Shown here: piece after piece, positions 8,540 to 59,554 of the stretch
Layout: each line of letters begins with the position of its first letter
Position numbering within the stretch: the first letter of the stretch is position 1
NCBI GenBank assembly: GCA_000002445.1
Contig: CP000071.1
Span: forward strand, 320,001 to 384,000
DNA from: Trypanosoma brucei
Lineage: Eukaryota
Reading direction: 5' to 3'
DNA: 64,000 nt
Notes under the pieces: generated by a model
The model's database searches: none
What the model was told of the DNA's origin: nothing
The model's input: only the letters and a program-made list of their open reading frames with translations
Translations under genes and position numbers: made by a program

Positions 8540-8974
8540 TCAGTGAAACCGAGTTCCACAATAACAATGTTCTCTCGTGCACGGTGGACGCTTTTTGCGA
8601 CGGCTACCGCATGACCCCTGAGCTCCTGCGCCACCCTCACCATCACCGCAGGCTTCACCATTTTGCTTCGCCTCATTGTTGTTTGCACAACCGTGGCAGC
8701 TGTCATCCTGATCACTACAACTACTACTAGTGCTGTCATCATCACTGCTGCTCTCACCAAAGAGTTTCTTTTTGTGGAAAATGCAGCAACTCTTACTTAC
8801 GCGTTGGTTTTGGTTATCCTTTACGTTAGCCTCCCAAGAGATGTGTCGGTCCCGGGAAGCCGATGAGGGGGCGGGACGCAAATGAAGTGTCACCTCTCGG
8901 CGCGGAATAAAAGCAACTTGCGTCTGTTGTATTCCTTCCGCCTGGTGGGTGCCCAATTGCTGAGACGAAGACAT
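8540..8974 (-). CDS. Protein phosphatase 1 regulatory subunit 11 / inhibitor-3 / Ypi1-like small protein.
   Basis: Conserved family core RHISWEANVKDNQNQRVSKSCCIFHKKKLFGESSSDDDS...SCHGC aligns with human PPP1R11 ...[42 protein letters not shown]...GCGH. The track ORF starts at 9025 on a non-ATG codon; I trimmed to the ATG at 8974..8972 (verified). The overlapping ORF 8449..8760(-) is an out-of-frame artefact. Confidence 0.55.
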   Translation of the reverse strand: MSSSQQLGTHQAEGIQQTQVAFIPRREVTLHLRPAPSSASRDRHISWEANVKDNQNQRVSKSCCIFHKKKLFGESSSDDDSTSSSCSDQDDSCHGCANNNEAKQNGEACGDGEGGAGAQGSCGSRRKKRPPCTREHCYCGTRFH

Positions 8975-9979: not shown

Positions 9980-10506
9980 GTACAAAGAGGGTCAATGAGA
10001 CATGTAAAAGCGAACAAACAGATCAAAAAGCAAAGAAAAAAAAAGGAAAAACACAGTTCAACCAAACGGGCGACGAACGCCCCAACTTATAATTTTATCG
10101 CTGTGATACTTAATCTCTTCATCCCTATCCTACCCCATCTATCCATGCGCACATGCGCATCTCCCCCATGACGTCTAAATTAATGTGAAAGAAAAGGAAA
10201 AATCAAAGCTCCTAGGGGGGTAAACGGGAGGGGAAAAAAAGTAATGCCAAAATGATACACCGCACCGGATGACGTAATAACACTGAAAGGAAATAAGCAC
10301 ACGCACATAAGGCTGTAGACTGGTCTTGAACTATTTGATGTTCCACCGCCTTCCCCACATCTCAATCCTCATATCTACAGTTCAACGATAGTGGCGACAA
10401 CAATGCTTCAGAGTACATTATTTTTCCTCTTCCTACTTGTTACGTGCACTTTTCCCAACACTTCTGTCTCACTACGGTACAACAAATCACCCGGTACTTC
10501 ACTTGT

Positions 10507-10557
10507 GAACCGTAACTGACGGGTGCTGGCTTTCGGAGCACCCGTCAGCTACGGTTC
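10507..10557. repeat. Near-perfect hairpin/palindrome: 21-bp stem (one mismatch at 10515/10549) with a 9-nt loop, gaaccgtaactgacgggtgct-ggctttcgg-agcacccgtcagctacggttc.
   Basis: Arms paired base by base from the sequence. It lies in the intergenic region 8975..10826, in the 3' flank of the 2653-aa gene. Confidence 0.85.
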
Positions 10558-10826: not shown

Positions 10827-13800
10827 CTAAGGACGGCAAGGTTGCGGGATACGGGGGTTCGGCGAGGTCACACCCGCACGACCATCGACAGCATTTGAAT
10901 TACCCTCCTTTTGAAATCCCTGAGGGCTCACTCCCCACTCATTCCCCAAAGTGGTAGTTCCATTTGCTCTTAACGGCTGTTGATAATTGCGGGGACGACT
11001 GTCCCTGGTACTTCTTGGTGGCGTTAGAACTGTGCGACCCGTTCGCGACAACTTGGCTCGCTGATTTTGTTGTTTGCTCTCCAGCGTCCAACGTATGTTC
11101 ATCGTGGGGTGCATACTACCGCGCCCGCTCTCGGCAACGTCGTCCAAGTGGGGGCGGGGACGGCGCGACTCCACTTCTTGGAATGGTTTGAGATGTGTCT
11201 CTGACCATTTTCCTCCAATGGCTGTGGTTGAGATAGCAGAAGGCGTTTTGGTTGGGCTTCGTAAATCGTGAGTCTCCGTAAAAAAGAAACTGCAGCGCTT
11301 GCCTGTCGCCGTATTTTCGTTAGCGTTTGCGTTCAGATACTGTGAACTGCCTCTCCTCAACCGCGTTCGGTCTAAGTGTTGGGGTTCCCCTTCCGACTGC
11401 AGTAACCCTAAATCTTCTTCAACATTACTAGGGCTCATGACGAGCAGAGGGTCAGCTAATGTGGTTACTCCTTTACCCATATCACCACATCGCAAAGGGG
11501 TTTCCTTCGTGAGGATTGAGGGCAAGATGCCTGCTATCGGAGGCACTTGCACACTCCCACGACTTACATCACCTACTCTCTGCCCCCGTCCCAAGTAGGG
11601 GCTCGGTGAAATACTAACACACTGAAACGAATCCATGGTTAACGCGCCGTCACTGCTGTTGATGTAAAGCTTCAATGCCTCCTCTAACGCGATCCATTGA
11701 GAGTTCGCAGCCAACTGCGGCAAGTCAAACTCGAACTGCGGATTTAGTTGCCCCTCGCGGCGCTCTGAGAGGGCGACGACGATGACACCCGGACGCCCCA
11801 CAACGCCAGCCTGCGCGAACTGCGGTAAGGAGGCGGTAACAGCTGTTTCCCCATCAGGAGTGCTAGGAAGTGATTCCTTGGCATCCTGAGTTCGAGAAAA
11901 ACTAAACGGGGGGCGTTGTAATTTGCTATGAAGGGAAATGAATGTAACACTGTGCCCCGTCCGGCTCAACGAATTACCATGCTGAGACGTGTACTCTCCA
12001 TCGTCCAGCTTCCTCTTGGCTTCTACATAAAACGAGGTCATGTGCTTCTCGTGCGAAGAGATAAAAAAAGAGATACTTGTATCAACGGCTGACTCAGCCT
12101 CTCCACCTCGCTTTACGTCGGTAGCAGATAGCGGCGGCCCTGCACCGGCAAACGTTTGACTCTCATCAGCATTTAGTTTAACTCTATCCAACACACCACT
12201 GTACCTCGCACTCGGAAAGGGATCCAGGCCTTGGCCATCCGAACAGCAAACATCCCTCAAGAGGCGCGCAACGGAAAGATCGACAGCCGCTGCATAGGCC
12301 TTCCCGTCAAGATCCTCAAGCTCTGACAAAACAGACATTTGCATCGGCAAGAAGTAAAGGTCCTCCATAATGATACCTTTCGAATCCATTTCTGACTCAT
12401 CGATCGGTAGTGCAGCCATGAGCAATTCCTTCGGTTTCTTAATCAAGTTTTGCATCTCATTATGTAGGGTTGTGGGCATACTGCCCAGGGACTGAAATCC
12501 CACATGTGACATGGCCCGCCGCGGTGATGCTTGCTTTCTACCATCAGCGCCACTAGAGTTTCCCCCGCCTGGTGAGTTGTAAACGCCAGAGCCACCACCT
12601 CTTTTGGCACCCTGCTTTAACAACGCCACCCTGTACTTCAACGTAATATTGCGCATCATTGCTTCGTGGAGCTTCTGTTTATTAGTCCCACTGGCATAAG
12701 CTTTACGTTGTCGTAGATTTTCCGCACTCTTCCACTGCTTCGTGAATTGGGTCTTCACAAACTCACCGATCCGCCGAATACCAGCGTCCAATGGGTTACA
12801 TGGTGAAAACTCCTGAAGACGCGCACACGCGTAGGGTGTCCACACACTAACCGACCCGTCCGCGCTCCCCACGTACAGGACGCCATTGCGTCGCGTTGTA
12901 ATACACTGCACTGCGTTATTATCTTCTGAAAAAAAAACTTCCTCGTCACGGCTCGCGCCTTCGTGGCAGCGACGTAACGCCTCGGTAATGCAGTCAGGTG
13001 GGGCTCCTTCGAGAAAAGCGTTCCAGTTGACGGAGATGGATTTATGCTGCCATCGGGACGATGCACCACCCTCTCGGTGGTCAGTTCCCTCCCTCGCGAG
13101 AAGACGCCTCTCGTCAACATACTTCATCAGTATTCTCACGCGCTCACGACGCTCGCGCCGTGCCCGCTCGATTATGGCTTCCATGGACAACAGGGTGAGA
13201 GGAGAGCTGGACACGGTGTTCACGGCGTGACGACGGAATAGAAGTTCCACCCAGTCCCCTGTTATCGGGGCCGGTCCTTCCTCTAACTCACCCGACGCCG
13301 CAATCGTTTCGACAAACTCCTCAATGTGGCAATTCGAGACCCGATTCGTGGAAGTGGGGTGCGAGCTATTGATTTCTTCAAACATGCTTTTTCGGTGGTG
13401 AAGCTCCTCCAAAATGCACTGACGAATGTGTCGCAAATCCTGCGAATTTATCATCGCAGCACACTTGGTTGTTTGGTCTCCATCCATTGCTCCATAATCC
13501 GTGGACGATGGTTGGCCGCTTCGTTGTGTTTGCATGAGCTGTAGCACATAGTGCAGAATTGCCGCCCCCAATAAAAGATCCGAGAGAGTTACGGTTGCAA
13601 GGTCCAACAAGGAAAACGTCGGTTCCGATGGGCCCCGGAACGTGGACGTTGAGGTCGGGTGTGGATGAAACAGCGATCGACAGGAATCATAGATCCACAA
13701 AAGCGATGGTCGCCACGACTGCAACGGCACCGCTGTCTGTGGCCTTTCCGACTGCCCATCAACTTCAGGGTTTGAAGATCCCTTGGGTAACCTCAGGGTC

Positions 13801-16800
13801 CCCAAGCTGGTGGATCTGCTAGAACTCACGGGCTTCGGTACGGAGGGCGCATTGCCTTCATCTGTGGAATCATCCGTTGCAGTCGGTTGTACCGTTGCAG
13901 CGGAGCCGCTCACCAAACTCCGTCGACGGCGATTTAGGAATGCGAGATCGTTGCGCTGCCTATTTATGGTCCTCATCACACGGTCAGGAGTCAGGTTAAA
14001 GAACACCAGCAAAACATTACACAACTCCACCTCTGCGCTGCCGCTTTGACCTTGTACAGACATTCTGCCGCGGGACATCAAGCTGGGCGATCTTCCAGAT
14101 AAAGAAGCAGGGTGAAGGTTCGCAGCAACTATTAGATTTCGCACCAAATACGATGTGACGAAGCCCTGCTGCGTACCAACGTACAGTGAGCAACAATGTG
14201 GGTCAAAGTGAAGCGTCGTCGGGGCACCGGGAACACGGAACCACCATACACAGGGAGTGGAGTTTAGACCATGCTGGTTAGTGCTCTCCACACTCGATTC
14301 CGTCAACTTGTCAACATTAAAAAGTTCCACGGATGGCTCATGCAAACTGGCTTGTTGCTGCCGCCGATATAACAACAAAGCCTTGTAGAAGTTATCAAAG
14401 AGGTCCAAAAAGGAAGCACCCTTCAGGAGGTAGAAACCAACAGTTCCCTGTACCTCTCCCACAACCAGGCAGGGATAGCCGCCAAGAAACGAAATAGTAG
14501 ACACCTCACTAGCAACATAAAACACTTGCAGGGCCATTCCGACGGCGGAGCCCATTCCCATCAGAGAGACACGACCGTTAACTTGCACGAGACATACAAG
14601 GTTTAACGCATGGCTAACAGTGATAAAACTAACTGCGTCGGCCTCCACCATTACGTTACGATATGCCTCGGCTGCCTCACTCTCGGTGCATCTAGTTGTA
14701 CGGCCACTTCTGTTGGCTGCTTCTTTCCTCATCAACGTGTTCTCCATCCGTAAATATGAAAGGGCCTTACTCACAAGAAACTCGGGAATGATGATGCGAT
14801 GCGCGTGCACACTACTGCCTAGAAGCGGGAAGAAACGGATAACTCCATCAACGTACACGACACACAACTCATGAGAGTTACGAGGGGTCATCATCCCGAC
14901 TACTTCACGGTGAACTGAAGAAGTTTTCGATCTCTCTAACGGAAGTTTGTGGCCCTCCCGGAGGAGACGTTGCAGGACAAAGGCGACATCATGAACGCCT
15001 ACGTGAGCCCCAACGTAACCATCTGGTGACTTCACATCATCACAGTCCTGGTTGTGTCGATTTTCGCCGGGGTTTCTAGTATACGTATACATGTGACGGC
15101 ACTGGAGCACAGCAGCGTAGATGAGCTCTGTAGAAGGGGACATAGTCAACAGCGTTTTCACCAATTGACCACTCTTTATTCGGTGCATACGAACATCCCC
15201 GCTTCCCAGGGCATAAAAAACGAACCGCTCTTGTGCATCTACGTGAGCGCAAATGACCCTATGCGTGGCCATCTGCTTTGACGAAACATCATCTTCGCCT
15301 GAGTTGTCTGCTCCTGCCGCGGCGGCTGCGGCGAATCGTGGAGTTGGAAGACCGCGAGCGGTTTGGTGGTTTGACTCCGGCGAAGGTCGGGAACCACCGC
15401 CGGCATCGCGGGCGGTGGACGCCTCGTGTTTCTGGGCGACCATCGCACGGCTGTTCTCCCGACGAGCCAAATCGGCCCGTTCAGTCGCGACACGGATAAC
15501 ATCATTTATTGTGGGAAGTGGCTGCTTGCATTCATCCAACTTATAGCGTTCCAAATCGGCAGCGGCGTTTGCGAGTTGTGCATCCGTGGGCAAATTCGAG
15601 CGTGACGCGAATGTGAGAGCCAAACGGGCCATGAGAAACTCTGGGTTATTCACCTTGAAACCAACCACAAGTTTGCTACTCTGGCAATCCCACACGCGAC
15701 AATCTGTGGGGCTCACGCTCACAAGCCACCGGTTTCGCTCACACATACCCACGTACAATGGCGGCGAGGAATGTGTTTTCATCGCAACTGAACCACTGAT
15801 GAACACACACACCAAATTATTTTTGGCCCCCGAAACAAACAGACGCCTCGTGTAGGCATCGTATGCAACCGTGCGAATGGGGTGAAGACTTCTTCTCTTC
15901 TGGTCATCCTCTAGCTTTGCGAATGACGTTTGCAAGATCGCGGCCAGTGCCCGGGAACCGGTGTCCCCAGCAACTCTCAAACGTTTATTGCCTGCATCAT
16001 CAACATCGAAGAGCCTAAAACCATTATTAGGTCCCATGTTTTCCTCCGACAAAAATCCCAAAGAGTTCATGCATTCTTCCGAAACAGCATAAAACGAAAA
16101 CTTGACGAGAGCGGTCCTCAGACTCCACACCTTTATGTGGCCACTCGTGTCAACGGTCGTTAGTTGCTCGAGGCTCTCATCAACTATAAATGATGCAATT
16201 TGGAAGTAATGGGGAGATATGGGGTCGTAAAAGTCTACACGAGAACTTTGGTGCGTCGTCCCCCATAGTGAAACACGGTTAGAGGAACTCAATGTCACAA
16301 TGGCGTTACCCGTCGGTGTGATATACGCAAGTCGCACTCCTCCACCAGTTTCCAATCGAAATGAGCGTACAAGTGTCATAGTACTCGCTCGGCTAAGAAC
16401 GATAGCACCGTCTAAGCTAGAGGTTAGAAGCATATCAGACGCTGTGAGGCATACGGATGTGACAACCTCCGAGTGAATTTTTTGCTCCTGCACAACGCGC
16501 CTTTCGAAGCGATCACGAACAGTTGAGGCAGCCACAATACCAGTAGTCATAATATCACTTGTTGAGGTCTGTGCTGAGATCATGCGTCGGAGAATTGCCT
16601 GTAGATCCAGTTTAATTACCTTTCCTGACCGTGTCCCAACGAAAAGGAAACCCTTTAACGGTAGGTTTTCATCAGCCGCCGCTGCACACCAGTCCATGGC
16701 GCAGATCGTCTCCTTCACATTCATCGTCAGACTCTCGGGAACCACCCAGATATGCTGATCCATGTTGTAGAAACGAATGATAAGATCATTCGTTAGGGTG

Positions 16801-18788
16801 ATAATAGTCTTGGGCAAATTGGGCCCAACGTCTTTTACCTCCATGCAGCATTCAATAGTGGGTTTGTTCCGATAATTGTTCTGGTCAGTTCGCTTTTCCT
16901 CCTTCTTTCGTTCGTCTTCCTCCTCTTCTGACAGACCCTGCTCTTTCTTCTGCTTCCGCTGCAGAGTAAACAACAACGACTGCTTTCCCCCGCCGTCCTG
17001 CAAGCGTCCATCCTCGTAGAGCACGTACCCCTTGGTAAACTTTTCCTGCTCCTTATTGTTTTCCCCTGTGCCAGCGTGGATGTCCCATCGTTCGGGGTCC
17101 CACGCGTCGGTTGCCCCATGACAATGCATAAGAAGCATTTCCGACGACCGTACCAACAGCTTCCGCTGAATAAGCCCATGGTATGAACTATCACACACCG
17201 CAAAGTCATTTGTTCCTTCCACGAGTACAGCAGCAGGGTTGTGACGGACCTTCGTTACCGCACGAACATAACCTAAGCGCCGCAACATTGATGGAAAGGG
17301 TTCTACCACACAATCGTCAAACACTGCCACGCCACTGCGTTCACTATCCTCACCGCAGTCCTGATCACACAACCCGCGGAGCTTTTCTTCCATGCATTCC
17401 GTAAGAGCATCTGTAAAGACCGACCAACTAATAACCCCCTTCTGCTCTGTATCAAATATATCAAAGCCCTGCATTGCAACCCGCCGGCACTCTTCCAGGA
17501 GAGAAACAGCCTCCTGAAGAAGAGAGTGGAGGGCTTCGTAACGAGGTGACACCAGAGGAGAAACGTTGTGAAGTGAATTACTTCCAGAGTCTCCCATGAC
17601 AACCGAAAGGCTAACCTCTGTCCTCGGTGTTGAGCCTCCGGCACAACTGGCACCCTGATTTGTTTGCTGAGACTTCACGCTGAATGCTTCCGCGGGAAAG
17701 CGGTCAAGGTAGTGCAAACGAAACAAGGCCCTGCTCAGCACGTACACAAAAACCGGAAGCGGTAGCACAAGGTTATCGGCATCTGTAACTAAGTGTGTGT
17801 GTCCGACTTTCTCACCTGCCTCATTTAAGCAGCTGCCGATCCCGTCGTGCAAGTCAAGATCCCGCATGTTCCTCGGCTTCGGTGCATTGCGTAAGTTTAC
17901 CATGAGTTCCTTTGTTCCGGCGTCAGGGAACTGTCTCGATACCACTGCAGTGAAAGTATCATTCGGGCGGGCCTTTCGCTTAGCCCTCAGCTCAAAAATC
18001 CTCTGCTGAACGTAACGATCATATATCCAAGTACACAACATTGCCTTCGTCTGCGAAGGAACATCCATCATACTCTTGACTGACTCCTCAACGGAAACAT
18101 CCGATGACGATTGGTCGTCTAAACTCTGCCAGGCCCGATCCGTTCCACCATCAGCGTTCGCACCGTCGTCTTCGCTTCTCACAGATGCTTGGTAAGATGG
18201 GGCTTTCGACCCCTGCCGCCCACGATGGGATCTATCCAAATGCTGCTCACCATACCGCATCTCCCTCTCGACGTGATTAACCAGCTTCTGCATGTCATTC
18301 AGGTCCCCGTGATTAAGAATGGCAGCGTGGGCCACGAATGACAACTTCAGCTTGTCGAGGTCTGTTGTCGCTAAATCTAATACCGACAGGGTGGAAGGAT
18401 TGCGGTAAGCACCGAGGGAACGAAAGGACTTTCTAGTGATGCGTGATTGCTTGGGGCGCCGCTTTAAGGGAGGCACCAGCGACTTGGACGACCACAAGCC
18501 GTCCTTCGGTTGTTCATCGGCGTCTGTGAAACTCACGAAAGGCACCGAAACGCTTCGGTTACGCACAGCATGTGACCCTGAAGGACTCGCAGGTGCACGG
18601 CTAATCGACTCCCCCTCCTCAGCCAACTTGGTGTCGGCTGCAGGGGAAGAAAATTCTGCGAAGCAGGACTTCGTCTCTGCCTCGTCATCGCCATGACTTG
18701 CGGCGGCGTTTACTTCGAAGTCCAGTGAAACTCCTACAGTGCTGCCGTGAGCTGAATTGGGCCCAACGGAACCAGTTAATGTAGACAT
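10827..18788 (-). CDS. Very large (2653 aa) WD40/beta-propeller repeat protein with a degenerate EF-hand-like loop (FDIFDTEQKGVISWSVF); function unknown, possibly cytoskeletal or flagellar.
   Basis: Single uninterrupted 7.96 kb ORF with an ATG start at 18788 (verified). There are multiple WD-like repeat segments (e.g. SLDGAIVLS, SSSNRVSLWG, TSGHIKVWSL, GSADGSVSVWT). No catalytic motif was recognised. Confidence 0.65.
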   Translation of the reverse strand: MSTLTGSVGPNSAHGSTVGVSLDFEVNAAASHGDDEAETKSCFAEFSSPAADTKLAEEGESISRAPASPSGSHAVRNRSVSVPFVSFTDADEQPKDGLWSSKSLVPPLKRRPKQSRITRKSFRSLGAYRNPSTLSVLDLATTDLDKLKLSFVAHAAILNHGDLNDMQKLVNHVEREMRYGEQHLDRSHRGRQGSKAPSYQASVRSEDDGANADGGTDRAWQSLDDQSSSDVSVEESVKSMMDVPSQTKAMLCTWIYDRYVQQRIFELRAKRKARPNDTFTAVVSRQFPDAGTKELMVNLRNAPKPRNMRDLDLHDGIGSCLNEAGEKVGHTHLVTDADNLVLPLPVFVYVLSRALFRLHYLDRFPAEAFSVKSQQTNQGASCAGGSTPRTEVSLSVVMGDSGSNSLHNVSPLVSPRYEALHSLLQEAVSLLEECRRVAMQGFDIFDTEQKGVISWSVFTDALTECMEEKLRGLCDQDCGEDSERSGVAVFDDCVVEPFPSMLRRLGYVRAVTKVRHNPAAVLVEGTNDFAVCDSSYHGLIQRKLLVRSSEMLLMHCHGATDAWDPERWDIHAGTGENNKEQEKFTKGYVLYEDGRLQDGGGKQSLLFTLQRKQKKEQGLSEEEEDERKKEEKRTDQNNYRNKPTIECCMEVKDVGPNLPKTIITLTNDLIIRFYNMDQHIWVVPESLTMNVKETICAMDWCAAAADENLPLKGFLFVGTRSGKVIKLDLQAILRRMISAQTSTSDIMTTGIVAASTVRDRFERRVVQEQKIHSEVVTSVCLTASDMLLTSSLDGAIVLSRASTMTLVRSFRLETGGGVRLAYITPTGNAIVTLSSSNRVSLWGTTHQSSRVDFYDPISPHYFQIASFIVDESLEQLTTVDTSGHIKVWSLRTALVKFSFYAVSEECMNSLGFLSEENMGPNNGFRLFDVDDAGNKRLRVAGDTGSRALAAILQTSFAKLEDDQKRRSLHPIRTVAYDAYTRRLFVSGAKNNLVCVFISGSVAMKTHSSPPLYVGMCERNRWLVSVSPTDCRVWDCQSSKLVVGFKVNNPEFLMARLALTFASRSNLPTDAQLANAAADLERYKLDECKQPLPTINDVIRVATERADLARRENSRAMVAQKHEASTARDAGGGSRPSPESNHQTARGLPTPRFAAAAAAGADNSGEDDVSSKQMATHRVICAHVDAQERFVFYALGSGDVRMHRIKSGQLVKTLLTMSPSTELIYAAVLQCRHMYTYTRNPGENRHNQDCDDVKSPDGYVGAHVGVHDVAFVLQRLLREGHKLPLERSKTSSVHREVVGMMTPRNSHELCVVYVDGVIRFFPLLGSSVHAHRIIIPEFLVSKALSYLRMENTLMRKEAANRSGRTTRCTESEAAEAYRNVMVEADAVSFITVSHALNLVCLVQVNGRVSLMGMGSAVGMALQVFYVASEVSTISFLGGYPCLVVGEVQGTVGFYLLKGASFLDLFDNFYKALLLYRRQQQASLHEPSVELFNVDKLTESSVESTNQHGLNSTPCVWWFRVPGAPTTLHFDPHCCSLYVGTQQGFVTSYLVRNLIVAANLHPASLSGRSPSLMSRGRMSVQGQSGSAEVELCNVLLVFFNLTPDRVMRTINRQRNDLAFLNRRRRSLVSGSAATVQPTATDDSTDEGNAPSVPKPVSSSRSTSLGTLRLPKGSSNPEVDGQSERPQTAVPLQSWRPSLLWIYDSCRSLFHPHPTSTSTFRGPSEPTFSLLDLATVTLSDLLLGAAILHYVLQLMQTQRSGQPSSTDYGAMDGDQTTKCAAMINSQDLRHIRQCILEELHHRKSMFEEINSSHPTSTNRVSNCHIEEFVETIAASGELEEGPAPITGDWVELLFRRHAVNTVSSSPLTLLSMEAIIERARRERRERVRILMKYVDERRLLAREGTDHREGGASSRWQHKSISVNWNAFLEGAPPDCITEALRRCHEGASRDEEVFFSEDNNAVQCITTRRNGVLYVGSADGSVSVWTPYACARLQEFSPCNPLDAGIRRIGEFVKTQFTKQWKSAENLRQRKAYASGTNKQKLHEAMMRNITLKYRVALLKQGAKRGGGSGVYNSPGGGNSSGADGRKQASPRRAMSHVGFQSLGSMPTTLHNEMQNLIKKPKELLMAALPIDESEMDSKGIIMEDLYFLPMQMSVLSELEDLDGKAYAAAVDLSVARLLRDVCCSDGQGLDPFPSARYSGVLDRVKLNADESQTFAGAGPPLSATDVKRGGEAESAVDTSISFFISSHEKHMTSFYVEAKRKLDDGEYTSQHGNSLSRTGHSVTFISLHSKLQRPPFSFSRTQDAKESLPSTPDGETAVTASLPQFAQAGVVGRPGVIVVALSERREGQLNPQFEFDLPQLAANSQWIALEEALKLYINSSDGALTMDSFQCVSISPSPYLGRGQRVGDVSRGSVQVPPIAGILPSILTKETPLRCGDMGKGVTTLADPLLVMSPSNVEEDLGLLQSEGEPQHLDRTRLRRGSSQYLNANANENTATGKRCSFFFTETHDLRSPTKTPSAISTTAIGGKWSETHLKPFQEVESRRPRPHLDDVAESGRGSMHPTMNIRWTLESKQQNQRAKLSRTGRTVLTPPRSTRDSRPRNYQQPLRANGTTTLGNEWGVSPQGFQKEGNSNAVDGRAGVTSPNPRIPQPCRP

Positions 18789-34392: not shown

Positions 34393-34408
34393 CCGTTACT
34401 TATATACG

Positions 34409-49464: not shown

Positions 49465-52400
49465 TCATCTAATACGTTCCTCGCACCAAGCGCTCATACG
49501 TCTCCATCCTCGCTCCCGAGGATGACTATGCCTCGACCACCAAAACTGGCTAACGCCCCGCATTGTTACATGTTCTCTCACCCTCTGCCATTGTGCCCTC
49601 GCCACCAGGCGCTGTCCAAAACGCATATAACTTCCCACATTATTCGAAGCAGAAGAATGATGCTCAACATCCTCAGCTAACTTCACGGCAATGCGACGCG
49701 CCCCCGGTTCCATGTCCTCCAGTTCAGCACCCTTTTCAAATGAGGGTTCCGACACCGGAATCAGGCGGGAAACAGAAACAAATACAAGTGTCAGCGATGC
49801 AATCAGAATCGATGCAATCCACTGTTCTGCTCTCAACGGTACACACGACATAAACTCTTTTAAGACCTCCACGGCCAAAACCTGAAAACCCACACAACAA
49901 ACCACGATAACCAAAAATGACTTTGAACGAATAAAAAGCCCTTCAAATACATTAACTTCATCATACACTTTGCGGGCATTAAACATATTAAATATGGTAA
50001 AGAAAATAAAAACGTTAAAAACAACAGTTGGAAGTTCCTTCCCCTTCGCCTTTAACCACTTACCACCATATTGGGTTAATAAAAGAACGCTAACAACCTG
50101 AACTACAGTAGCAGTCAGTATTGTCAACCACATTCGACGTGAGACAAGGGGAGCTCGGGGGGAAGACGGACCACGATTTAAGCAATCCTCTGTCGGTTGC
50201 TCCGTTGCGAGAGCGAGGGCCGCAAGTGTGTCCATAAGAAGATTTACCCATAACAGCTGTACAGTCGTTAACGGTGACATATCATGAGCAGACAAAAAAG
50301 AACCAACAAAAACAACAACAATAGAAGCAATATTAATAGAAAGTTGTAACTGCAGGAACTTGCGGATGTTGTCATTCACAGTCCGTCCCCAAACAACGGC
50401 ACGCTGGACAGAACGGAAGTTGTCGTCTAAAAGCACAATATCACCGGACTTCACCGCTATATCCGTGCCACTGCGCATCACAAAACCCACATTTGCAAGA
50501 CGCAGCGCAGGGGCGTCATTTGTCCCATCACCAGTCACAGCAACGACCTCACCACGGAGCATCAGCATCAGTACGAGCAGTTGCTTGTCCAGAGGCTGCG
50601 AACGCCCCATCACCATCATCCGGTCAAGAACAGGCCAGAACTTCTCCATGTTCGCCTCGTCACCATAAGTGTCATACACAAGGTTGCGGAAGTCCTTCCC
50701 AGTGAGCGCAAGATCACCACGCAGTCGATTGTAAATTCCACATTGCCGAGAAATTGCAACGGCTGTGTCGAGATTGTCACCCGTACACATCCTCACTGTC
50801 ACTCCCGCACGCTGGCACATTCGCACAGCATCCACAACCTCTGGACGAAGCGGGTCCTGGATGCCTAATAGTGCAAGCCACACAAATGGTCCCTCGGGTT
50901 CCTCCTCGGGAACCGCACCGTCCGTACCGATACGCCCGTATGCCACGCCGATTGTGCGATTTGCGTCCCCCGCTATTGACCGTATCTGCGCAGTGATCAT
51001 CTCAGTTACCTCCTCCGTCAGCGGCTCCTCACGACCCTCTGACGACAAGTATCGGTTGCACATGCCAAGCACACGATCAGAGCCCCCTTTCACGTACTGC
51101 ATCACAACTCCATCCGCACCTGCAACCACAGCAGTCATAAACTTCCGTTCGCTCGTAAAAGGAAAGATGGCAAAGCCACGGCTGCGGTTTGTCATGCGTA
51201 ACTTCTGGTGTGGAAGCTCCTTGTCATTACAACTACCCGGTACCGATATCAACACGCGATCCACAAAATCCAATATCGCTTGGTCAGTTTTGTTGCCCTT
51301 GTCGGTACGCCACGTCCATCGAGACAGTAAGTCAGACTCAGCTCCCACATTACCTGGTAAAAGCTCCTTCTCACTCGAACTATTCAGTGCAAGACCAAGC
51401 ATTAGTAACGACTGTGCATCACTAGACACACCCTCCAGATTAACCGTGGACGAGGGATCTCCGGGATTCGAGACACGGAACCGCCGCATCCCAATGTAAC
51501 CTTGTACCACAGTCATACGATTCTGAGTCAGCGTCCCAGTTTTATCACTACAAATCTGTGTTGCATTGCCCATTGTCTCACAAGCACACAAACGCCTCAC
51601 CTGATTATTGTCCTTCTGCATCTGGCTCTGTGAGTACGCAAGAGCAATCGTCACCGCCAACGGCAAGCCCTCTGGCACTGCGACGACAACAATCGTCACA
51701 CAAAGTAAAAAAATATCAAGAAACTTTTTTGCGCGTAACTCTTCTTTACCACGAAGAACGAGAAGGATGTAAAACAAAGAAAGCAGAGACATAAGTATCA
51801 CTGCCGCTCCAATTCCTATCCGACCAATAAACCCAGCTAATTCGTCCAATCGCTCCTGCAAGGGAGTCGCCCTCGGTTCACCGTCGAGACGAGATTCCAT
51901 TAGCAGCTTTCCACCAAAAGAAGACTCACCGACGGCGCACGCAAGAATGTAAGCATCCTCAGCCGTACTCACAACAGTCCCAGAAAGTAAGATTGGATGT
52001 TCGGCGCCTTTCTTTTTCAGATCATTCTCGCCAGTCACACTCGACTCATCAACAACAACACTCAAACCACGTACGTATAAACCATCTACAGGGATAACAA
52101 GACCCGGTGACAAGGACACAAGATCACCCACAACAATTTCTGTCACATCCACCGTAACCTTGTGACCATCACGAATGACGGAGATTGGCTGAGCAGAGTT
52201 CTCCTCCACAAGAGCACGGAATTTCAACTCCTTGCGGTAATCCTGAATAGACGATGCTGAGGTTACTGCAATCACGGCCATAAGAATGGCGGTGCCCTCT
52301 ATCCAACCTGTCTTATAGTCAACCTTCTCGTGTCCGGGTTCCGGCACAGTTAACCCGAGGATAAGCGACACACATGCGGCAAGGGTCAAAAGTATGATCA

Positions 52401-52773
52401 TGCGGTCACTCCATGCAGCTTTAAAAATCTTCCAGAATGTCAGCGGAGCCTCCTCAGGAAGCTCATTCCTCCCATACACAGCACGCCGATTCTCTACAGA
52501 AAAAGAGTCGATGCCATCTGTTATACTCGTGCCAAGTCGTTCGGCAATACCCTCAACGCCGCCAAGTTCCTCGTATAGGGGCTTAGCGTCACCGACGCAA
52601 CTGAACAAGGTGTGAAGCTCTCCCTTAATCCCTATGCCGATACGATCTTCGAGCTCCACCTCCACTGCAACGGACCCATCACTTCTGGTAAGGCCAGTGG
52701 ATAAAAACGCTTGCCTCTCTCGACCGCGGCCGGCAAGTGTACCGTAGTTCGAAGTGTCTTTTGGGGAAATCAT
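49465..52773 (-). CDS. PMCA/vacuolar-type Ca2+-transporting P-type ATPase, array copy A (1102 aa), with a C-terminal ~270 aa divergent from copies B and C.
   Basis: P-type ATPase motifs CSDKTGTLTQN (phosphorylation site), MCTGDN, GDGTNDAPAL and PEGLPLAVTIALAYS. The track start at 52776 is GTG; the ATG is at 52773..52771 (verified). The length of 1102 aa matches my recollection of one of the two T. brucei PMC proteins (TbPMC2), which is unconfirmed. Confidence 0.85.
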   Translation of the reverse strand: MISPKDTSNYGTLAGRGRERQAFLSTGLTRSDGSVAVEVELEDRIGIGIKGELHTLFSCVGDAKPLYEELGGVEGIAERLGTSITDGIDSFSVENRRAVYGRNELPEEAPLTFWKIFKAAWSDRMIILLTLAACVSLILGLTVPEPGHEKVDYKTGWIEGTAILMAVIAVTSASSIQDYRKELKFRALVEENSAQPISVIRDGHKVTVDVTEIVVGDLVSLSPGLVIPVDGLYVRGLSVVVDESSVTGENDLKKKGAEHPILLSGTVVSTAEDAYILACAVGESSFGGKLLMESRLDGEPRATPLQERLDELAGFIGRIGIGAAVILMSLLSLFYILLVLRGKEELRAKKFLDIFLLCVTIVVVAVPEGLPLAVTIALAYSQSQMQKDNNQVRRLCACETMGNATQICSDKTGTLTQNRMTVVQGYIGMRRFRVSNPGDPSSTVNLEGVSSDAQSLLMLGLALNSSSEKELLPGNVGAESDLLSRWTWRTDKGNKTDQAILDFVDRVLISVPGSCNDKELPHQKLRMTNRSRGFAIFPFTSERKFMTAVVAGADGVVMQYVKGGSDRVLGMCNRYLSSEGREEPLTEEVTEMITAQIRSIAGDANRTIGVAYGRIGTDGAVPEEEPEGPFVWLALLGIQDPLRPEVVDAVRMCQRAGVTVRMCTGDNLDTAVAISRQCGIYNRLRGDLALTGKDFRNLVYDTYGDEANMEKFWPVLDRMMVMGRSQPLDKQLLVLMLMLRGEVVAVTGDGTNDAPALRLANVGFVMRSGTDIAVKSGDIVLLDDNFRSVQRAVVWGRTVNDNIRKFLQLQLSINIASIVVVFVGSFLSAHDMSPLTTVQLLWVNLLMDTLAALALATEQPTEDCLNRGPSSPRAPLVSRRMWLTILTATVVQVVSVLLLTQYGGKWLKAKGKELPTVVFNVFIFFTIFNMFNARKVYDEVNVFEGLFIRSKSFLVIVVCCVGFQVLAVEVLKEFMSCVPLRAEQWIASILIASLTLVFVSVSRLIPVSEPSFEKGAELEDMEPGARRIAVKLAEDVEHHSSASNNVGSYMRFGQRLVARAQWQRVREHVTMRGVSQFWWSRHSHPRERGWRRMSAWCEERIR

Positions 52774-53425
52774 CACTCCCTCAAAACTTTCCCTCCCACT
52801 CGGTCACACTTCGCGCAACCAAACGTTACTTTATCCTGTACTCGCTTTGGGCCACTCAACAACAATCCAGAAATATCACCTACCTGTATCGCAAATGACA
52901 CCTAACGTTATTCTCATTATTTTTCAAAATTGCATTTGATATAATTGTTACAAGTCAATGAAGGGAAAGAAAGAGACAGGGAAAGGGAGTGACAGAAGTG
53001 TTCCTAAGTGGTTAATTGAACATGACTTTTGAGTCACGTAAGGAAAGAAAGGTGAACACAAAAGCATCCACTGGTCTTCCCCCTCCCTTTCTACACCTAA
53101 TATTCCCTAATCGGCCTCTTCCGTTAATATTACCTGCGCGTCACCGAAAGTACAGAAGGGTGAAGTGGGGCCCCTTGCACAGACGTATGCGAACTGCCGG
53201 TTCACAGGCACACCATGAAACCATTAACCTTATCCTGTTTCTTACTTCACACAACAATTTCTCTTACGCTTACTTTCAGTCCGGCTGCTTCATCCTCATG
53301 AAGAAGCAGTTATGCACTTCCGCATTACTTGGTAATATTTGGTTGTTGTTATTGCTCCCCTTCGCTTTCATTTATCACCAATGACCACAGGCTGTTCACT
53401 GTAGAGTTGCTTCTCAGGTACATAC

Positions 53426-54421
53426 CTACAGGTCACGTAGGAGTGATGAAATGAGAAGGGTACCATCGCACAGAGCCTCTAGATGCTGAGCCTGTTCCCT
53501 AAGTTGCACCAGTGCCAACATTGTGTCCACTCCACGTGCGGGGGGTACATTGTTTTCATCTCGCTGGTTTCTGGAAGTTTCCCGACTGAGTTTGCCCTCC
53601 AAATCACTTAAGTTTCGCTGTACAGACTCAAGGAGGGCAACCTTGTAATCAGCCATAGAATCAGAGTGATGTACTGTACTGTTGCTTGGCAACGGTGCGA
53701 TATCAATGCCGTTTAGGCAAAAAAGTTGATAAGCATCCACCTCCACCTCCACCTTCACCTCGCGAAGCACACCTTGCTTGGGGACCGAACACGCACGCAG
53801 AAGCCGTGCTTCTTCCTGCATCCCACTCTTCTTGTCAGTCTTTTTGGTTTTTTTGTTCTTTCTGGAAAAGTCGAGAAATGCATCCGTCGGCACGAACGCA
53901 CGAAGGTACAACTTACCCATTAGGCCGGTACGGAAGGGGTCGTAGACAAGAAGCACACTTGGGTGACCGTCAATTGCCAAGTTCGCCAACCGATCAGCTG
54001 TCACAACCGAGTAGGGATCATTCACACAAGCACTGGAAACAATGAAGTAACCTACGCTATAACTGTCTAGGCACTCCTTACGCAGCATCTCCTTTACTTT
54101 CTCGTACATCTTCTGCTGCTGTTTACTCTCGGCCGTGTCATCCCGCTCATCCTCTGCGTCACCAGAAGCTCCCAGGCTGGGAAGAACACTCGTGATGAGA
54201 ATCGTATCCCCTTGTTGAACTCCACAAAGACGTCCGCCGACGGCACTGTGGCACGTGGCATCCTGCGAGAAGCTGCCGAGATGTGTGAGGGCGGGAAATG
54301 ATATGCGAACTTTCTTCGCTGGCGGCAGTTCCACGTGAGAATCACTATCCTTCGCGAATATCGATTCGCCAGTGGGGGCGTCGTCGGAAACGACCTGAAC
54401 CTGCGGAAAACCGTGAAACAT
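53426..54421 (-). CDS. MPN (JAB/Mov34) domain protein with a C-terminal coiled-coil tail, likely translation initiation factor eIF3 subunit h; array copy 1.
   Basis: MPN-like core (GDTILITSVLPS...GYFIVSS...HPSVLLVYDP) and a C-terminal helical region. ATG at 54421 verified. The eIF3h assignment is from fold pattern and memory of a duplicated eIF3h at this locus, so it is an inference. Confidence 0.6.
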   Translation of the reverse strand: MFHGFPQVQVVSDDAPTGESIFAKDSDSHVELPPAKKVRISFPALTHLGSFSQDATCHSAVGGRLCGVQQGDTILITSVLPSLGASGDAEDERDDTAESKQQQKMYEKVKEMLRKECLDSYSVGYFIVSSACVNDPYSVVTADRLANLAIDGHPSVLLVYDPFRTGLMGKLYLRAFVPTDAFLDFSRKNKKTKKTDKKSGMQEEARLLRACSVPKQGVLREVKVEVEVDAYQLFCLNGIDIAPLPSNSTVHHSDSMADYKVALLESVQRNLSDLEGKLSRETSRNQRDENNVPPARGVDTMLALVQLREQAQHLEALCDGTLLISSLLRDL

Positions 54422-58500: not shown

Positions 58501-58902
58501 ACATGCGGCAAGGGTCAAAAGTATGATCATGCGGTCACTCCATGCAGTTTTAAAAATCTTCCAGAATGTCAGCGGAGCCTCCTCAGGAAGCTCATTCCTC
58601 CCATACACAGCACGCCGATTCTCTACAGAAAAAGAGTCGATGCCATCTGTTATACTCGTGCCAAGTCGTTCGGCAATACCCTCAACGCCGCCAAGTTCCT
58701 CGTATAGGGGCTTAGCGTCACCGACGCAACTGAACAAGGTGTGAAGCTCTCCCTTAATCCCTATGCCGATACGATCTTCGAGCTCCACCTCCACTGCAAC
58801 GGACCCATCACTTCTGGTAAGGCCAGTGGATAAAAACGCTTGCTTCTCTCGACCGCGGCCGGCAAGTGTACCGTAGTTCGAAGTGTCTTTTGGGGAAATC
58901 AT
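55582..58902 (-). CDS. PMCA/vacuolar-type Ca2+-transporting P-type ATPase, array copy B (1106 aa).
   Basis: Same P-type motifs as copy A. ATG at 58902..58900 (verified; the track start at 58905 is GTG). Nearly identical to copy A over about two thirds of its length, but with a different TM3/TM4 patch and C-terminal region. The length of 1106 aa matches my recollection of TbPMC1, which is unconfirmed. Confidence 0.85.
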   Translation of the reverse strand: MISPKDTSNYGTLAGRGREKQAFLSTGLTRSDGSVAVEVELEDRIGIGIKGELHTLFSCVGDAKPLYEELGGVEGIAERLGTSITDGIDSFSVENRRAVYGRNELPEEAPLTFWKIFKTAWSDRMIILLTLAACVSLILGLTVPEPGHEKVDYKTGWIEGTAILMAVIAVTSASSIQDYRKELKFRALVEENSAQPISVIRDGHKVTVDVTEIVVGDLVSLSPGLVIPVDGLYVRGLSVVVDESSVTGENDLKKKGAEHPILLSGTVVSTAEDAYILACAVGESSFGGKLLMESRLDGEPRATPLQERSQNLVSFIARVAIISAVLFFIVLCIIEIERIATNKQQFYPKKFLNFLLLCVTIVVIAVPEGLPLVVTIALAYSQSQMQKDNNQVRRLCACETMGNATQICSDKTGTLTQNRMTVVQGYIGMRRFRVSNPGDPSSTVNLEGVSSDAQSLLMLGLALNSSSEKELLPGNVGAESDLLSRWTWRTDKGNKTDQAILDFVDRVLISVPGSCNDKELPHQKLRMTNCSRGFAIFPFTSERKFMTAVVAGADGVVMQYVKGGSDRVLGMCNRYLSSEGREEPLTEEVTEMITEQIRSIAGDANRTIGVAYGRIGTDGAVPEEEPEGPFVWLALLGIQDPLRPEVVDAVRMCQRAGVTVRMCTGDNLDTAVAISRQCGIYNRLRGDLALTGKDFRNLVYDTYGDEANMEKFWPVLDRMMVMGRSQPLDKQLLVLMLMLRGEVVAVTGDGTNDAPALRLANVGFVMRSGTDIAVKSGDIVLLDDNFRSVQRAVVWGRTVNDNIRKFLQLQFTVNLVCFSLTVVGTLVREGKSSPLTTVQLLWVNLLMDTLAAPALATEQPTEDCLNRGPSSPRAPLVSRRMWFTIFSVATVQLTAFFSVLTFGGKYFGEDENGKHLHRTFLFNVFVFGTIFHMLNCRKLYRELNVFEGMGRSVFFIVVVGSCIAFQVLAICTFNDFMGVRPLSIKQWGVSIGIAAISLVVGILSRVVSIREPVFALIPDSRNVDGSASRLIKDVSVAAEQRQRETDGTSDASSLLAGRLRAQSRWRRLQAEHVKKPRVVNAFRRAWTDRDMKRGSTRQLYDTLRMV

Positions 58903-59554
58903 CACTCCCTCAAAACTTTCCCTCCCACTCGGTCACACTTCGCGCAACCAAACGTTACTTTATCCTGTACTCGCTTTGGGCCACTCAACAACAATCCAGA
59001 AATATCACCTACCTGTATCGCAAATGACACCTAACGTTATTCTCATTATTTTTCAAAACTGCATTTGATATAATTGTTACAAGTCAATGAAGGGAAAGAA
59101 AGAGACAGGGAAAGGGAGTGACAGAAGTGTTCCTAAGTGGTTAATTGAACATGACTTTTGAGTCACGTAAGGAAAGAAAGGTGAACACAAAAGCATCCAC
59201 TGGTCTTCCCCCTCCCTTTCTACACCTAATATTCCCTAATCGGCCTCTTCCGTTAATATTACCTGCGCGTCACCGAAAGTACAGAAGGGTGAAGTGGGGC
59301 CCCTTGCACAGACGTATGCGAACTGCCGGTTCACAGGCACACCATGAAACCATTAACCTTATCCTGTTTCTTACTTCACACAACAATTTCTCTTACGCTT
59401 ACTTTCAGTCCGGCTGCTTCATCCTCATGAAGAAGCAGTTATGCACTTCCGCATTACTTGGTAATATTTGGTTGTTGTTATTGCTCCCCTTCGCTTTCAT
59501 TTATCACCAATGACCACAGGCTGTTCACTGTAGAGTTGCTTCTCAGGTACATAC

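What the first reader, a model, noticed from the sequence alone, without database searches (positions are those of the whole stretch)
10507..10557. Near-perfect 51-nt hairpin in the 3' flank of the giant WD-repeat gene
A 21-bp stem with a single mismatch and a 9-nt loop is highly non-random for intergenic DNA here, where low-complexity A/T- and CA-rich runs predominate. On the transcribed (minus) strand it would form the same hairpin in RNA. Possibilities include a binding site for an RNA-binding protein in a 3'UTR, a small structured RNA, a precursor-like hairpin, or a DNA-level cruciform. I cannot tell these apart from sequence alone.
Basis: seen in the sequence. Interest (0 to 1): 0.5.

Follow-up and report, generated by a model that had tools for sequence, protein, structure and literature searches.

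The report
Trypanosome hairpin with a strain-flipped loop
A unique 51-base hairpin just downstream of a giant Trypanosoma brucei gene is real, and its 9-base loop sits in opposite orientations in different strains, which is the known footprint of DNA folding back on itself during copying and not evidence of a new regulatory RNA.

Summary
Arms 10507-10527 and 10537-10557 pair over 21 positions with one mismatch and a 9-nt loop. This is the only such non-low-complexity hairpin in 64 kb and lies far beyond shuffled background.

The window is T. b. brucei TREU927 chromosome 8. The hairpin lies 270-320 nt 3' of the stop codon of a 2653-aa WD/EF-hand gene (inferred Tb927.8.1050). On the sense strand the mismatch is a G.U wobble.

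The main new result comes from four independent T. brucei-group assemblies. Stems and flanks are identical in all four, but the loop is CCGAAAGCC in TREU927 and T. equiperdum OVI and its exact reverse complement, GGCTTTCGG, in T. b. gambiense DAL972 and T. b. equiperdum DPX39. The flip follows the two local haplotypes, so one event suffices. It is the only inversion-type change in about 45 kb compared. This matches the known hairpin-mediated template-switch (or break-repair) microinversion.

No counterpart exists in T. vivax or T. cruzi. There is no Rfam family. The stem is shorter than T. brucei siRNAs, and the locus is absent from the published siRNA catalogue.

Best reading: a young, lineage-specific inverted repeat made and remodelled by replication or repair fold-back, carried passively in a 3' UTR or spacer. 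An RNA function is neither shown nor excluded. It is a new member of a known kind, of modest interest.

The parts
10507..10527 (.). Left arm of the inverted repeat on the + strand (3' arm of the sense-strand RNA hairpin)
   Evidence: Identical in all four T. brucei-group genomes.
10528..10536 (.). 9-nt loop, the visibly inverted segment. On the sense strand it reads CCGAAAGCC in TREU927 and T. equiperdum OVI, and GGCTTTCGG in DAL972 and DPX39.
   Evidence: It is an exact reverse complement of the same length.
10537..10557 (.). Right arm of the inverted repeat on the + strand (5' arm of the sense-strand RNA hairpin)
10516..10548 (.). Largest possible extent of the inverted segment: the loop plus the inner 12 perfect base pairs. 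The breakpoints must lie inside this interval, because the mismatch at 10515/10549 keeps its orientation in both alleles.
   Evidence: Inference from the alignments and the pairing shown.
10515..10515 (.). The single mismatch position, pairing with 10549. It is A.C on the + strand and G.U on the sense (-) strand, and is shared by both loop alleles.
10827..18788 (-). Upstream gene: 2653-aa WD40/EF-hand protein, identical to T. b. brucei TREU927 XP_846942.1 (locus tag inferred to be Tb927.8.1050). The hairpin lies 270-320 nt 3' of its stop codon.
   Evidence: Pfam beta-propeller hits.
8540..8974 (-). Next gene downstream in the polycistron: a 144-aa Ypi1-type protein phosphatase inhibitor. Its start codon is about 1.53 kb 3' of the hairpin.
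10187..10241 (-). First polypyrimidine tracts of the spacer on the sense strand, about 265 nt 3' of the hairpin. This is a candidate processing signal that could set a proximal poly(A) site. Further tracts lie at 10032-10051 and 9316-9448.
   Evidence: Their role is inferred from general knowledge of trypanosome mRNA processing and was not tested.

Best explanation
The feature is a young, single-copy inverted repeat specific to the T. brucei group. It has a 21-bp stem and a 9-nt spacer and sits in the 3' UTR or intergenic spacer of Tb927.8.1050. It behaves as a DNA secondary-structure element. Shown: at some point after the two local haplotype groups diverged, the loop, with up to 12 bp of inner stem on each side, was copied in reverse complement. 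This gave two alleles that differ only in loop orientation. Inferred mechanism: during replication or break repair the nascent strand folded back, or switched template, within one arm of the repeat, copied across the loop from the complementary strand, and switched back within the other arm. This is a short template-switch mutation; microhomology-mediated break-induced replication is a variant. The same class of event, a fold-back or template switch that copies adjacent sequence in reverse complement, is also the most economical origin for the near-perfect repeat itself. At the RNA level the transcript, if it includes this region, would form a very stable hairpin (about -39 to -40 kcal/mol for either allele). 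I consider this most likely a passenger with no selected function.
For: The loop is the exact reverse complement between strains, with identical stems and about 60-nt flanks, in four independently produced assemblies, two per orientation. Nine adjacent changes that give exactly the reverse complement cannot plausibly arise by point substitution at a local divergence of about 0.5-1% (inference). Loop orientation co-segregates with two local haplotypes that differ at about 40 fixed sites over 8.7 kb, so a single event suffices. It is the only multi-base substitution cluster in 16 kb, and the only inversion-type cluster in about 45 kb of TREU927-DAL972 comparison outside tandem paralogues. The retained mismatch places the breakpoints in the perfectly paired inner stem, as the template-switch model requires. 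Both alleles fold identically as RNA and as DNA. [quoted passage not shown] No counterpart exists in T. vivax or T. cruzi. There is no known RNA family and no tRNA.
Against: The polarity of the flip is unknown because no alignable outgroup was available. Only four genomes were compared, so recurrent flipping and heterozygosity are untested. The claim that the hairpin itself arose by template switching is an inference with no ancestral sequence to show it. The mismatch being G.U on the sense strand is what an RNA-level constraint would predict, although any transition has a 50% chance of falling that way. Divergence within the T. brucei group (0.5-1%) is too low to test for selection on the stem: about 0.2-0.4 substitutions are expected in 42 nt. 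The 316-nt substitution-free stretch around the hairpin (10397-10711) is about the longest gap expected by chance for roughly 22 substitutions in 1.85 kb (my estimate). Passive passenger status is therefore a default, not a demonstration.
Confidence: 0.6

Rival explanations
1. The hairpin is a functional RNA element in the 3' UTR of Tb927.8.1050. A stable 21-bp A-form stem would be recognised by shape, for example by a double-stranded-RNA-binding protein or nuclease, or would act as a barrier or landmark for 3'-end processing or decay. The loop sequence would be irrelevant, which is why its inversion is tolerated.
For: On the sense strand the only mismatch is a G.U wobble, so the RNA stem has 21 of 21 pairs, whereas the antisense RNA has an A.C mismatch. 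The hairpin is unique in 64 kb and intact in both haplotype groups. Both loop alleles keep the same fold and energy. The first polypyrimidine tract lies about 265 nt downstream. A second, shorter mRNA species, about 20% of the total and independent of ORF length, was reported for Tb927.8.1050 (PMC5842037), which would fit alternative 3'-end formation near this region.
Against: There is no conservation beyond the T. brucei group. No covariation is available, because the stems are invariant at 0.5-1% divergence. The G.U orientation is a coin-flip for a single transition. Whether the hairpin is inside the mature mRNA was not determined here. The link to the shorter mRNA is speculative; the paper gives no 3'-end mapping. 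No known trypanosome 3' UTR element has this architecture (own knowledge).
Confidence: 0.2
2. The hairpin is a small-RNA precursor (miRNA-like or endo-siRNA hairpin) processed by TbDCL1 or TbDCL2 and loaded into TbAGO1.
For: T. brucei has a complete RNAi pathway. The hairpin gives weak generic matches to pre-miRNA covariance models (MIR5387 23.6 bits, mir-284 23 bits). Template switching is a documented route to new miRNA hairpins (PMC8794818; bioRxiv 10.1101/2023.04.19.537475, listed).
Against: The Rfam hits are far below the gathering scores of 52-69 bits and occur on both strands, as expected for any perfect hairpin. T. brucei siRNAs are 22-25 nt, longer than the 21-bp stem. Deep sequencing of AGO1-bound RNA found no miRNAs, and the only inverted-repeat sources were 422-10,011 bp (PMC3447711; PMC3683921). 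The supplementary siRNA locus tables list nothing at Tb927.8.1040 or Tb927.8.1050. No second copy or target-like sequence occurs in the available sequence.
Confidence: 0.05
3. The hairpin is a functional DNA element. A cruciform-forming palindrome would serve as a protein-binding site or landmark for replication, chromatin or transcription, or as a programmed invertible switch.
For: The DNA demonstrably adopted a fold-back or cruciform-competent state at least once, as the loop inversion shows. Each DNA strand can form a hairpin of about -22 to -23 kcal/mol.
Against: It is a single copy with no related sites in about 211 kb. It lies inside a unidirectional polycistron, away from strand-switch regions. 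A 9-nt spacer carries no plausible regulatory cargo and is too short for recombinase-type synapsis (argument in PMC8755829). Orientation follows haplotype, as expected for one rare event and not for switching.
Confidence: 0.05
4. The loop difference is a sequencing or assembly artefact, or the hairpin belongs to a dispersed repeat or mobile-element remnant.
For: Strong hairpins can cause chimeric or fold-back library artefacts (own knowledge). I could not scan the whole T. brucei genome for further copies.
Against: Each orientation is seen in two separately produced assemblies and agrees with the surrounding haplotype over 8.7 kb. There are no adjacent target-site duplications and no extension of the repeat. 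No further copies occur in the window or loci. No match exists in 241 million metagenome records or in 185,579 prokaryotic genomes.
Confidence: 0.05

Closest known systems
Template-switch mutation (TSM) loop inversions at perfect hairpins (Loytynoja and Goldman 2017, PMC5453318; Monttinen and Loytynoja 2022, PMC8794818)
   Same: A perfect or near-perfect stem flanks a short loop. The alleles differ by the exact reverse complement of the loop, with unchanged length and untouched stems. [quoted passage not shown]
   Different: Those cases are in rRNA and miRNA genes of animals and bacteria. This one is in a kinetoplastid nuclear spacer or 3' UTR with no demonstrated RNA product. It has a longer stem (21 bp) and a 9-nt loop that is not self-complementary, so all nine positions change.
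Inverted-repeat-flanked microinversions between human and chimpanzee (PMC8755829)
   Same: The inversions are clean and precise, the segment is under 33 nt, and it is bounded by inverted repeats whose inner edges abut the inversion. The mechanistic options are the same: two template switches, or microhomology-mediated break-induced replication.
   Different: Those are fixed differences between species, detected only at 17 nt or more. This one is 9 nt visible (up to 33 nt actual) and is a polymorphism among very closely related subspecies and strains.
Minute hairpin-loop inversions in chloroplast non-coding DNA (Kelchner and Wendel 1996, cited from memory; usage seen in the plastome papers)
   Same: Small loops between stable stem arms flip orientation between close relatives.
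   Different: Those are organellar genomes, where the inversions are often highly homoplasious. This is nuclear DNA, and the four genomes show no homoplasy.
Long inverted repeats IR1-IR7 of T. brucei that generate siRNAs (Tschudi et al. 2012, PMC3447711)
   Same: Same organism. [quoted passage not shown]
   Different: Their arms are 422-10,011 bp with kilobase spacers and documented Dicer-dependent siRNAs. The arms here are 21 bp, and the locus is not in the siRNA catalogue.
Short templated inverted duplications at DNA double-strand breaks (PMC11724301)
   Same: Fold-back priming generates inverted duplications of about 5-34 bp, a plausible origin for a 21-bp repeat with a short spacer (abstract).
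   Different: That was observed experimentally in yeast at induced breaks. No break or ancestral sequence is documented here.

Membership tests
Hairpin-mediated microinversion / template-switch loop inversion | The segment is bounded by a perfect or near-perfect inverted repeat whose inner edges abut the inverted segment | tested here: met
   21-bp arms, of which the inner 12 bp are perfect, lie directly against the 9-nt loop.
Hairpin-mediated microinversion / template-switch loop inversion | The alleles differ by the exact reverse complement of the segment, with unchanged length and no other change in the arms or flanks | tested here: met
   CCGAAAGCC against GGCTTTCGG. The stems and at least 60 nt on each side are identical in four genomes.
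Hairpin-mediated microinversion / template-switch loop inversion | The event is real, that is, seen independently and consistent with genealogy | tested here: met
   There are two assemblies per orientation, and orientation co-segregates with two haplotypes defined by about 40 fixed sites in 8.7 kb. Raw reads were not available.
Hairpin-mediated microinversion / template-switch loop inversion | The ancestral and derived states can be assigned to a branch | not testable with these tools
   T. vivax and T. cruzi spacers are unalignable. T. congolense DNA is not on record.
Hairpin-mediated microinversion / template-switch loop inversion | The switch points lie within complementary sequence; an imperfect position crossed by the switch would be converted or swapped | tested here: met
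   The mismatch at pair 9 is unchanged in both alleles, so the switch points lie in the inner 12 perfect pairs.
miRNA / hairpin endo-siRNA precursor | The stem is long enough to yield a Dicer product of the organism's size class (22-25 nt in T. brucei) | tested here: not met
   The stem is 21 bp, while siRNAs are 22-25 nt (PMC3447711).
miRNA / hairpin endo-siRNA precursor | Discrete small RNAs map to the arms and depend on Dicer and Argonaute | not testable with these tools
   No read data were available. The published catalogue lists no locus at this gene, and no miRNAs were detected in T. brucei.
miRNA / hairpin endo-siRNA precursor | The sequence matches a curated family at its gathering score | tested here: not met
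   The best hits are 23.6 bits against a gathering score of 69, on both strands.
T. brucei long inverted repeats (IR1-IR7, siRNA sources) | The arms are hundreds to thousands of bp long and siRNA production is documented | tested here: not met
   The arms here are 21 bp, whereas IR1-IR7 are 422-10,011 bp and the only chromosome 8 member lies at 1,048-1,059 kb.
Trypanosomatid single-hairpin H/ACA-like snoRNA | A hairpin interrupted by an internal pseudouridylation pocket and followed by a 3' AGA box; usually found in snoRNA clusters (own knowledge of the family) | tested here: not met
   The stem is continuous with no internal loop. There are no Rfam snoRNA hits at the hairpin. The motif after the stem is ACA, not AGA.
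Programmed invertible DNA switch (recombinase-driven inverton) | An invertible segment long enough to synapse and carrying a regulatory or coding cargo, with both orientations present in populations | tested here: not met
   The spacer is 9 nt (33 nt at most), below any feasible looping length (argument in PMC8755829). Orientation follows haplotype. Within-clone heterogeneity was not testable.
Conserved structured RNA element (covariation-supported) | The structure is retained across species through compensatory changes | tested here: inconclusive
   The stems are invariant within the T. brucei group, so there is no information. The element is absent or unalignable in T. vivax and T. cruzi.

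The most novel reading that the evidence does not exclude
The hairpin is a selected, shape-recognised dsRNA element in the 3' UTR of Tb927.8.1050 in an RNAi-competent parasite. It might, for example, set the proximal 3'-end isoform seen as the shorter mRNA, or be bound or cleaved by a dsRNA-specific factor. Its perfect pairing would be kept up by repeated template switching between the arms, and the loop flip would be the visible by-product of that homogenisation.
Probability: 0.1. Interest if true: 0.6.

Novelty: new member of a known kind. Interest (0 to 1): 0.3.

Why it matters
If the main reading holds, this is a clean natural example of a hairpin-mediated microinversion. It shows that short template-switch or fold-back mutations operate in a kinetoplastid nuclear genome. 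The searchable literature returned no paper that mentions both Trypanosoma and microinversions.

There are practical consequences. Such events create clusters of apparent SNPs, here 9 of the 110 substitutions between TREU927 and DAL972 in 16 kb. These can mislead variant calling, phylogenies and divergence estimates for the closely related T. brucei subspecies. The flip also offers a compact two-state marker that tags the two haplotype groups at this locus.

It also illustrates how perfect RNA-hairpin-forming sequences can appear from nothing in 3' UTRs of an organism that regulates genes almost wholly post-transcriptionally. It does not open a major unsolved question.

Tried and rejected
- **Known RNA families:** The Rfam gathering scan of the whole window gave no hits. 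The permissive scan of 10000-10900 gave only sub-threshold generic pre-miRNA-like hits on both strands. ARAGORN found no tRNA or tmRNA.
- **Coding potential:** Only mechanical ORFs of 21-44 aa overlap the hairpin, so there is none, and no gene-caller handle for fetching more contigs.
- **Dispersed repeat:** There are no extra copies with up to 3 mismatches in the window, or with up to 5 in about 211 kb of window plus loci. There are no exact matches in JGI metagenomes or GTDB prokaryotic genomes. The full T. brucei genome could not be scanned.
- **Conservation in distant orthologous flanks:** The T. vivax spacer gives no alignment. Its only 13-nt inverted repeat folds no better than shuffles (z = -0.25). 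The T. cruzi flank has only (TA)n and poly-T/poly-A pairings. The T. congolense protein has no contig on record.
- **More strains:** The exact TREU927 proteins are not indexed to a contig. Logan contigs carrying the neighbouring Ypi1 and PFK2 genes are 1.0-2.9 kb, end at low-complexity runs and do not reach the hairpin. I first thought their ends might mark mRNA boundaries, but no spliced-leader sequence is present, so I dropped that idea.
- **Transposon-footprint origin:** There are no target-site duplications and no extension of pairing beyond the 21 bp.
- **Local conservation:** The 316-nt substitution-free stretch around the hairpin is about the expected longest gap for the observed substitution density, so it is not significant (my estimate).
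- **Other mutation clusters:** The other multi-base clusters in the extended comparison are simple-repeat indels, paralogue mosaics in the tandem Ca2+-ATPase array, or two 3-nt clusters (29917-29919 and 47389-47391) that are not reverse complements.
- **SECIS, histone-type and Rnt1-type stem-loops:** I considered these from memory and dropped them. The stem has no internal loop or kink-turn, and the loop is not a defined tetraloop.

Full report
**1. The observation**

The sequence at 10507-10557 is a 51-nt inverted repeat. The arms are GAACCGTAACTGACGGGTGCT (10507-10527) and AGCACCCGTCAGCTACGGTTC (10537-10557), separated by 9 nt. Twenty of the 21 positions are Watson-Crick pairs.

The exception is 10515/10549. 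It is A.C on the + strand and G.U on the - strand, so the minus-strand RNA forms an uninterrupted 21-pair stem.

- Folding 10480-10590 gives -50.9 kcal/mol on the - strand (z = -5.5).
- It gives -44.6 kcal/mol on the + strand (z = -6.1).
- No shuffle out of 200 folds as well on either strand.

In the whole 64 kb this is the only perfect stem of at least 12 bp with a 3-30 nt loop. One hundred dinucleotide-preserving shuffles gave 0.1 such stems on average, and none exceeded 16 pairs. The other long inverted repeats in the window are (TA)n or homopurine/homopyrimidine low complexity.

**2. Where it is**

All large ORFs in the window are on the minus strand, and the spacers are CA- and pyrimidine-rich. 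This is the layout of a trypanosomatid polycistron.

The 2653-aa ORF at 10827..18788 is identical to T. b. brucei TREU927 XP_846942.1. Ten further proteins of the window match TREU927 accessions exactly. The window is therefore TREU927 chromosome 8.

From the run of accession numbers, and from locus tags I remember for the neighbours (KKT9, ncPAP1, PFK2), I infer that the gene is Tb927.8.1050. This fits its use as a model very long ORF in PMC5842037, but the tag was not verified directly.

On the sense strand the hairpin begins 270 nt after the stop codon. The next gene, a 144-aa Ypi1-type phosphatase inhibitor at 8540..8974, starts about 1.53 kb further on. Polypyrimidine tracts, which in trypanosomes direct trans-splicing and the coupled upstream polyadenylation (general knowledge), lie at 10241-10187, 10051-10032 and 9448-9316.

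The hairpin is thus probably inside the 3' UTR of at least the longer mRNA isoforms. This is an inference; I had no transcript-end data.

**3. What it is not**

- Rfam gives no family at gathering score anywhere in the window.
- The permissive scan gives only generic pre-miRNA-like matches of about 23 bits, against gathering scores of 52-69, and on both strands. Any perfect hairpin would do this.
- There are no tRNAs.
- No ORF longer than 44 aa overlaps the hairpin.
- The arm has no other copy in the window or in about 211 kb of window plus related loci.
- It has no match in the metagenome or prokaryotic genome collections.

**4. Comparison with other genomes: the main result**

I fetched the orthologous locus from three other T. 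brucei-group assemblies:

- T. equiperdum OVI (CZPT02001112.1, locus L001);
- T. b. gambiense DAL972 (FN554971.1, locus L003);
- the assembly labelled T. brucei equiperdum with DPX39 locus tags (GCA_003543875.1, CM010679.1, locus L005).

Over 16 kb the window is 99.8% identical to OVI and 99.0% to DAL972.

The hairpin is present in all of them, with identical stems and flanks. The loop differs. On the sense strand it reads CCGAAAGCC in TREU927 and OVI, and GGCTTTCGG, the exact reverse complement, in DAL972 and DPX39.

All nine positions differ, and they differ in precisely the way an inversion predicts. At a local divergence of 0.5-1%, independent substitutions cannot produce this.

The event is isolated:

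- It is the only multi-base substitution cluster in the 16 kb shared by the window, L001 and L003. Every other cluster is an indel in a simple repeat.
- After extending the TREU927-DAL972 comparison to about 45 kb with loci L007 and L008, it remains the only inversion-type cluster outside the tandem Ca2+-ATPase paralogues.

**5. Genealogy and extent of the event**

Over 8.7 kb around the hairpin the four genomes fall into two haplotype groups, {TREU927, OVI} and {DPX39, DAL972}.

- Between groups there are 49-62 substitutions.
- Within groups there are 15-17.

Loop orientation co-segregates with these groups. One inversion on the branch between them therefore explains the data, and there is no sign of recurrent flipping. 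Two independent assemblies per orientation, each consistent with its flanking haplotype, make an assembly artefact unlikely.

The mismatch at pair 9, counted from the outside, has the same orientation in both alleles. The inverted segment therefore did not include it. The breakpoints lie in the inner 12 perfect pairs, and the inverted segment is between 9 nt (10528-10536) and 33 nt (10516-10548).

Polarity cannot be assigned. The T. vivax and T. cruzi spacers are unalignable, and T. congolense DNA was not retrievable.

The two alleles fold into the same hairpin with almost the same energy:

| Molecule (sense strand) | Allele A (TREU927/OVI) | Allele B (DAL972/DPX39) |
|---|---|---|
| RNA | -39.1 kcal/mol | -40.5 kcal/mol |
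| DNA | -23.2 kcal/mol | -23.4 kcal/mol |

**6. Mechanism**

Shown: a precise inversion of the loop, bounded by the inverted repeat.

Inferred: the route. A 9-33 bp segment is far below the length at which duplex arms can synapse for homologous recombination; PMC8755829 makes this argument for segments under 33 bp. The accepted alternatives are:

- two template switches within the arms during replication (the four-point template-switch model, PMC5453318 and PMC8794818);
- repair of a break in the loop by microhomology-mediated break-induced replication (PMC8755829).

PMC8794818 describes exactly this pattern: inversions at a perfectly pairing hairpin that leave no footprint in the stems, including 7-8 nt loops and the MIR633 hairpin.

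The same class of event, or fold-back priming at a break that yields 5-34 bp inverted duplications (PMC11724301), is the most economical origin for a near-perfect 21-bp repeat in otherwise unremarkable spacer DNA.

The single transition mismatch and the absence of the hairpin from T. vivax and T. cruzi fit a young element. It is older than the haplotype split but much younger than the genus.

**7. Does it do anything as RNA?**

This is unresolved.

For a role:
- the wobble falls on the sense strand;
- the hairpin is unique in the window;
- the stem is intact in both haplotype groups.

Against a role, or uninformative:
- a single transition has an even chance of producing G.U on either strand;
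- divergence within the group is too low for covariation or constraint tests;
- the substitution-free 316 nt around the hairpin is no longer than the expected maximum gap (my estimate);
- there is no conservation outside the group.

A role as a Dicer substrate is unlikely. T. brucei siRNAs are 22-25 nt, no miRNAs were found, the known inverted-repeat sources are 422-10,011 bp (PMC3447711; PMC3683921), and the published locus tables list nothing here.

Recognition of a specific loop sequence is disfavoured, because both orientations persist.

One lead remains. PMC5842037 reports a second, shorter mRNA from Tb927.8.1050, about 20% of the total and independent of ORF length. That would fit an alternative 3' end in this spacer, but nothing ties it to the hairpin.

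**8. Verdict**

The feature is a real, highly non-random, single-copy inverted repeat. Its strain-specific loop orientation shows hairpin-mediated template switching, or an equivalent repair process, in a trypanosome nuclear genome.

It is a new member of a known kind of mutational feature. The searchable literature has no paper that mentions both Trypanosoma and microinversions, and none of the seven papers that mention T. brucei, template switching and inverted repeats together is, by title and abstract, about this.

I rate the passive, mutational explanation at about 0.6, a shape-dependent RNA function at about 0.2, and the remaining rivals at 0.05 each or less.

Noticed in passing
window 49465-63962 (compare L008): There are tandem units of about 6.1 kb, each holding a vacuolar-type Ca2+-ATPase gene (49465..52776, 55582..58905, 61716..63962) and a 331-aa gene (53426..54421, 59555..60550). 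The fetched DAL972 stretch shows only one 1077-aa ATPase, which suggests a copy-number difference. The dense mismatch clusters at 51748-51844 and 56344-57977 look like paralogue mosaics and not point divergence. An imperfect palindrome (TTTACCCATAACAGCTGTACAG...) recurs once per unit at 50246, 56372 and 62506.
   Followed up: partly
window 6900-15600 (L001, L003, L005): There are two deep local haplotypes. TREU927 groups with T. equiperdum OVI, and the assembly labelled T. brucei equiperdum (DPX39, GCA_003543875.1) groups with T. b. gambiense DAL972. The two 'equiperdum' assemblies differ by 59 substitutions in 8.7 kb here. That could reflect different origins of the strains, or different haplotypes of a heterozygous diploid being assembled.
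   Followed up: partly
window 21778-21786: A 9-nt in-frame indel (TGATGGTGA on the sense strand) in the malonyl-CoA decarboxylase gene is present in TREU927 and OVI (741 aa) and absent from DAL972 (738 aa).
   Followed up: no
window 8975-10826 (spacer) and PMC5842037: Mulindwa et al. 2018 saw a second, shorter mRNA species, about 20% of the total, from Tb927.8.1050 regardless of how much ORF was removed. This hints at an alternative 3' end. The spacer has three separate groups of polypyrimidine tracts (10187-10241, 10032-10051, 9316-9448) that could drive alternative processing. The spacer is long (1.85 kb) for a downstream gene of 144 aa.
   Followed up: partly
window 10464-10480: About 30 nt 3' of the hairpin on the sense strand, GTACCGTAGTGAGAC resembles the start of the 5' arm (GAACCGTAGCTGACG), sharing the heptamer ACCGTAG followed by TGA with a 1-nt offset. 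It could be chance or the remnant of a local duplication linked to the origin of the repeat.
   Followed up: no
window 34401-34439 and 38001-40000: A (TA)n tract lies at 34401-34439. A low-GC (0.365) stretch without large ORFs lies between the protein kinase and PP-EF phosphatase genes. The DAL972 annotation places only small genes (123 aa, 112 aa and a 190-aa ribosomal protein S4/S9) in this interval.
   Followed up: no
L006, L010, L011, L012 (Logan runs ERR7929156, ERR7929157, ERR7929159, ERR7929163): Short run-level contigs from one sequencing project carry the DPX39-type alleles of Ypi1 and PFK2. They all break at the same low-complexity runs (A8-9 near window 9255-9265 and a TA-rich run at about window 8103). 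The underlying reads could genotype the hairpin loop in more isolates.
   Followed up: partly
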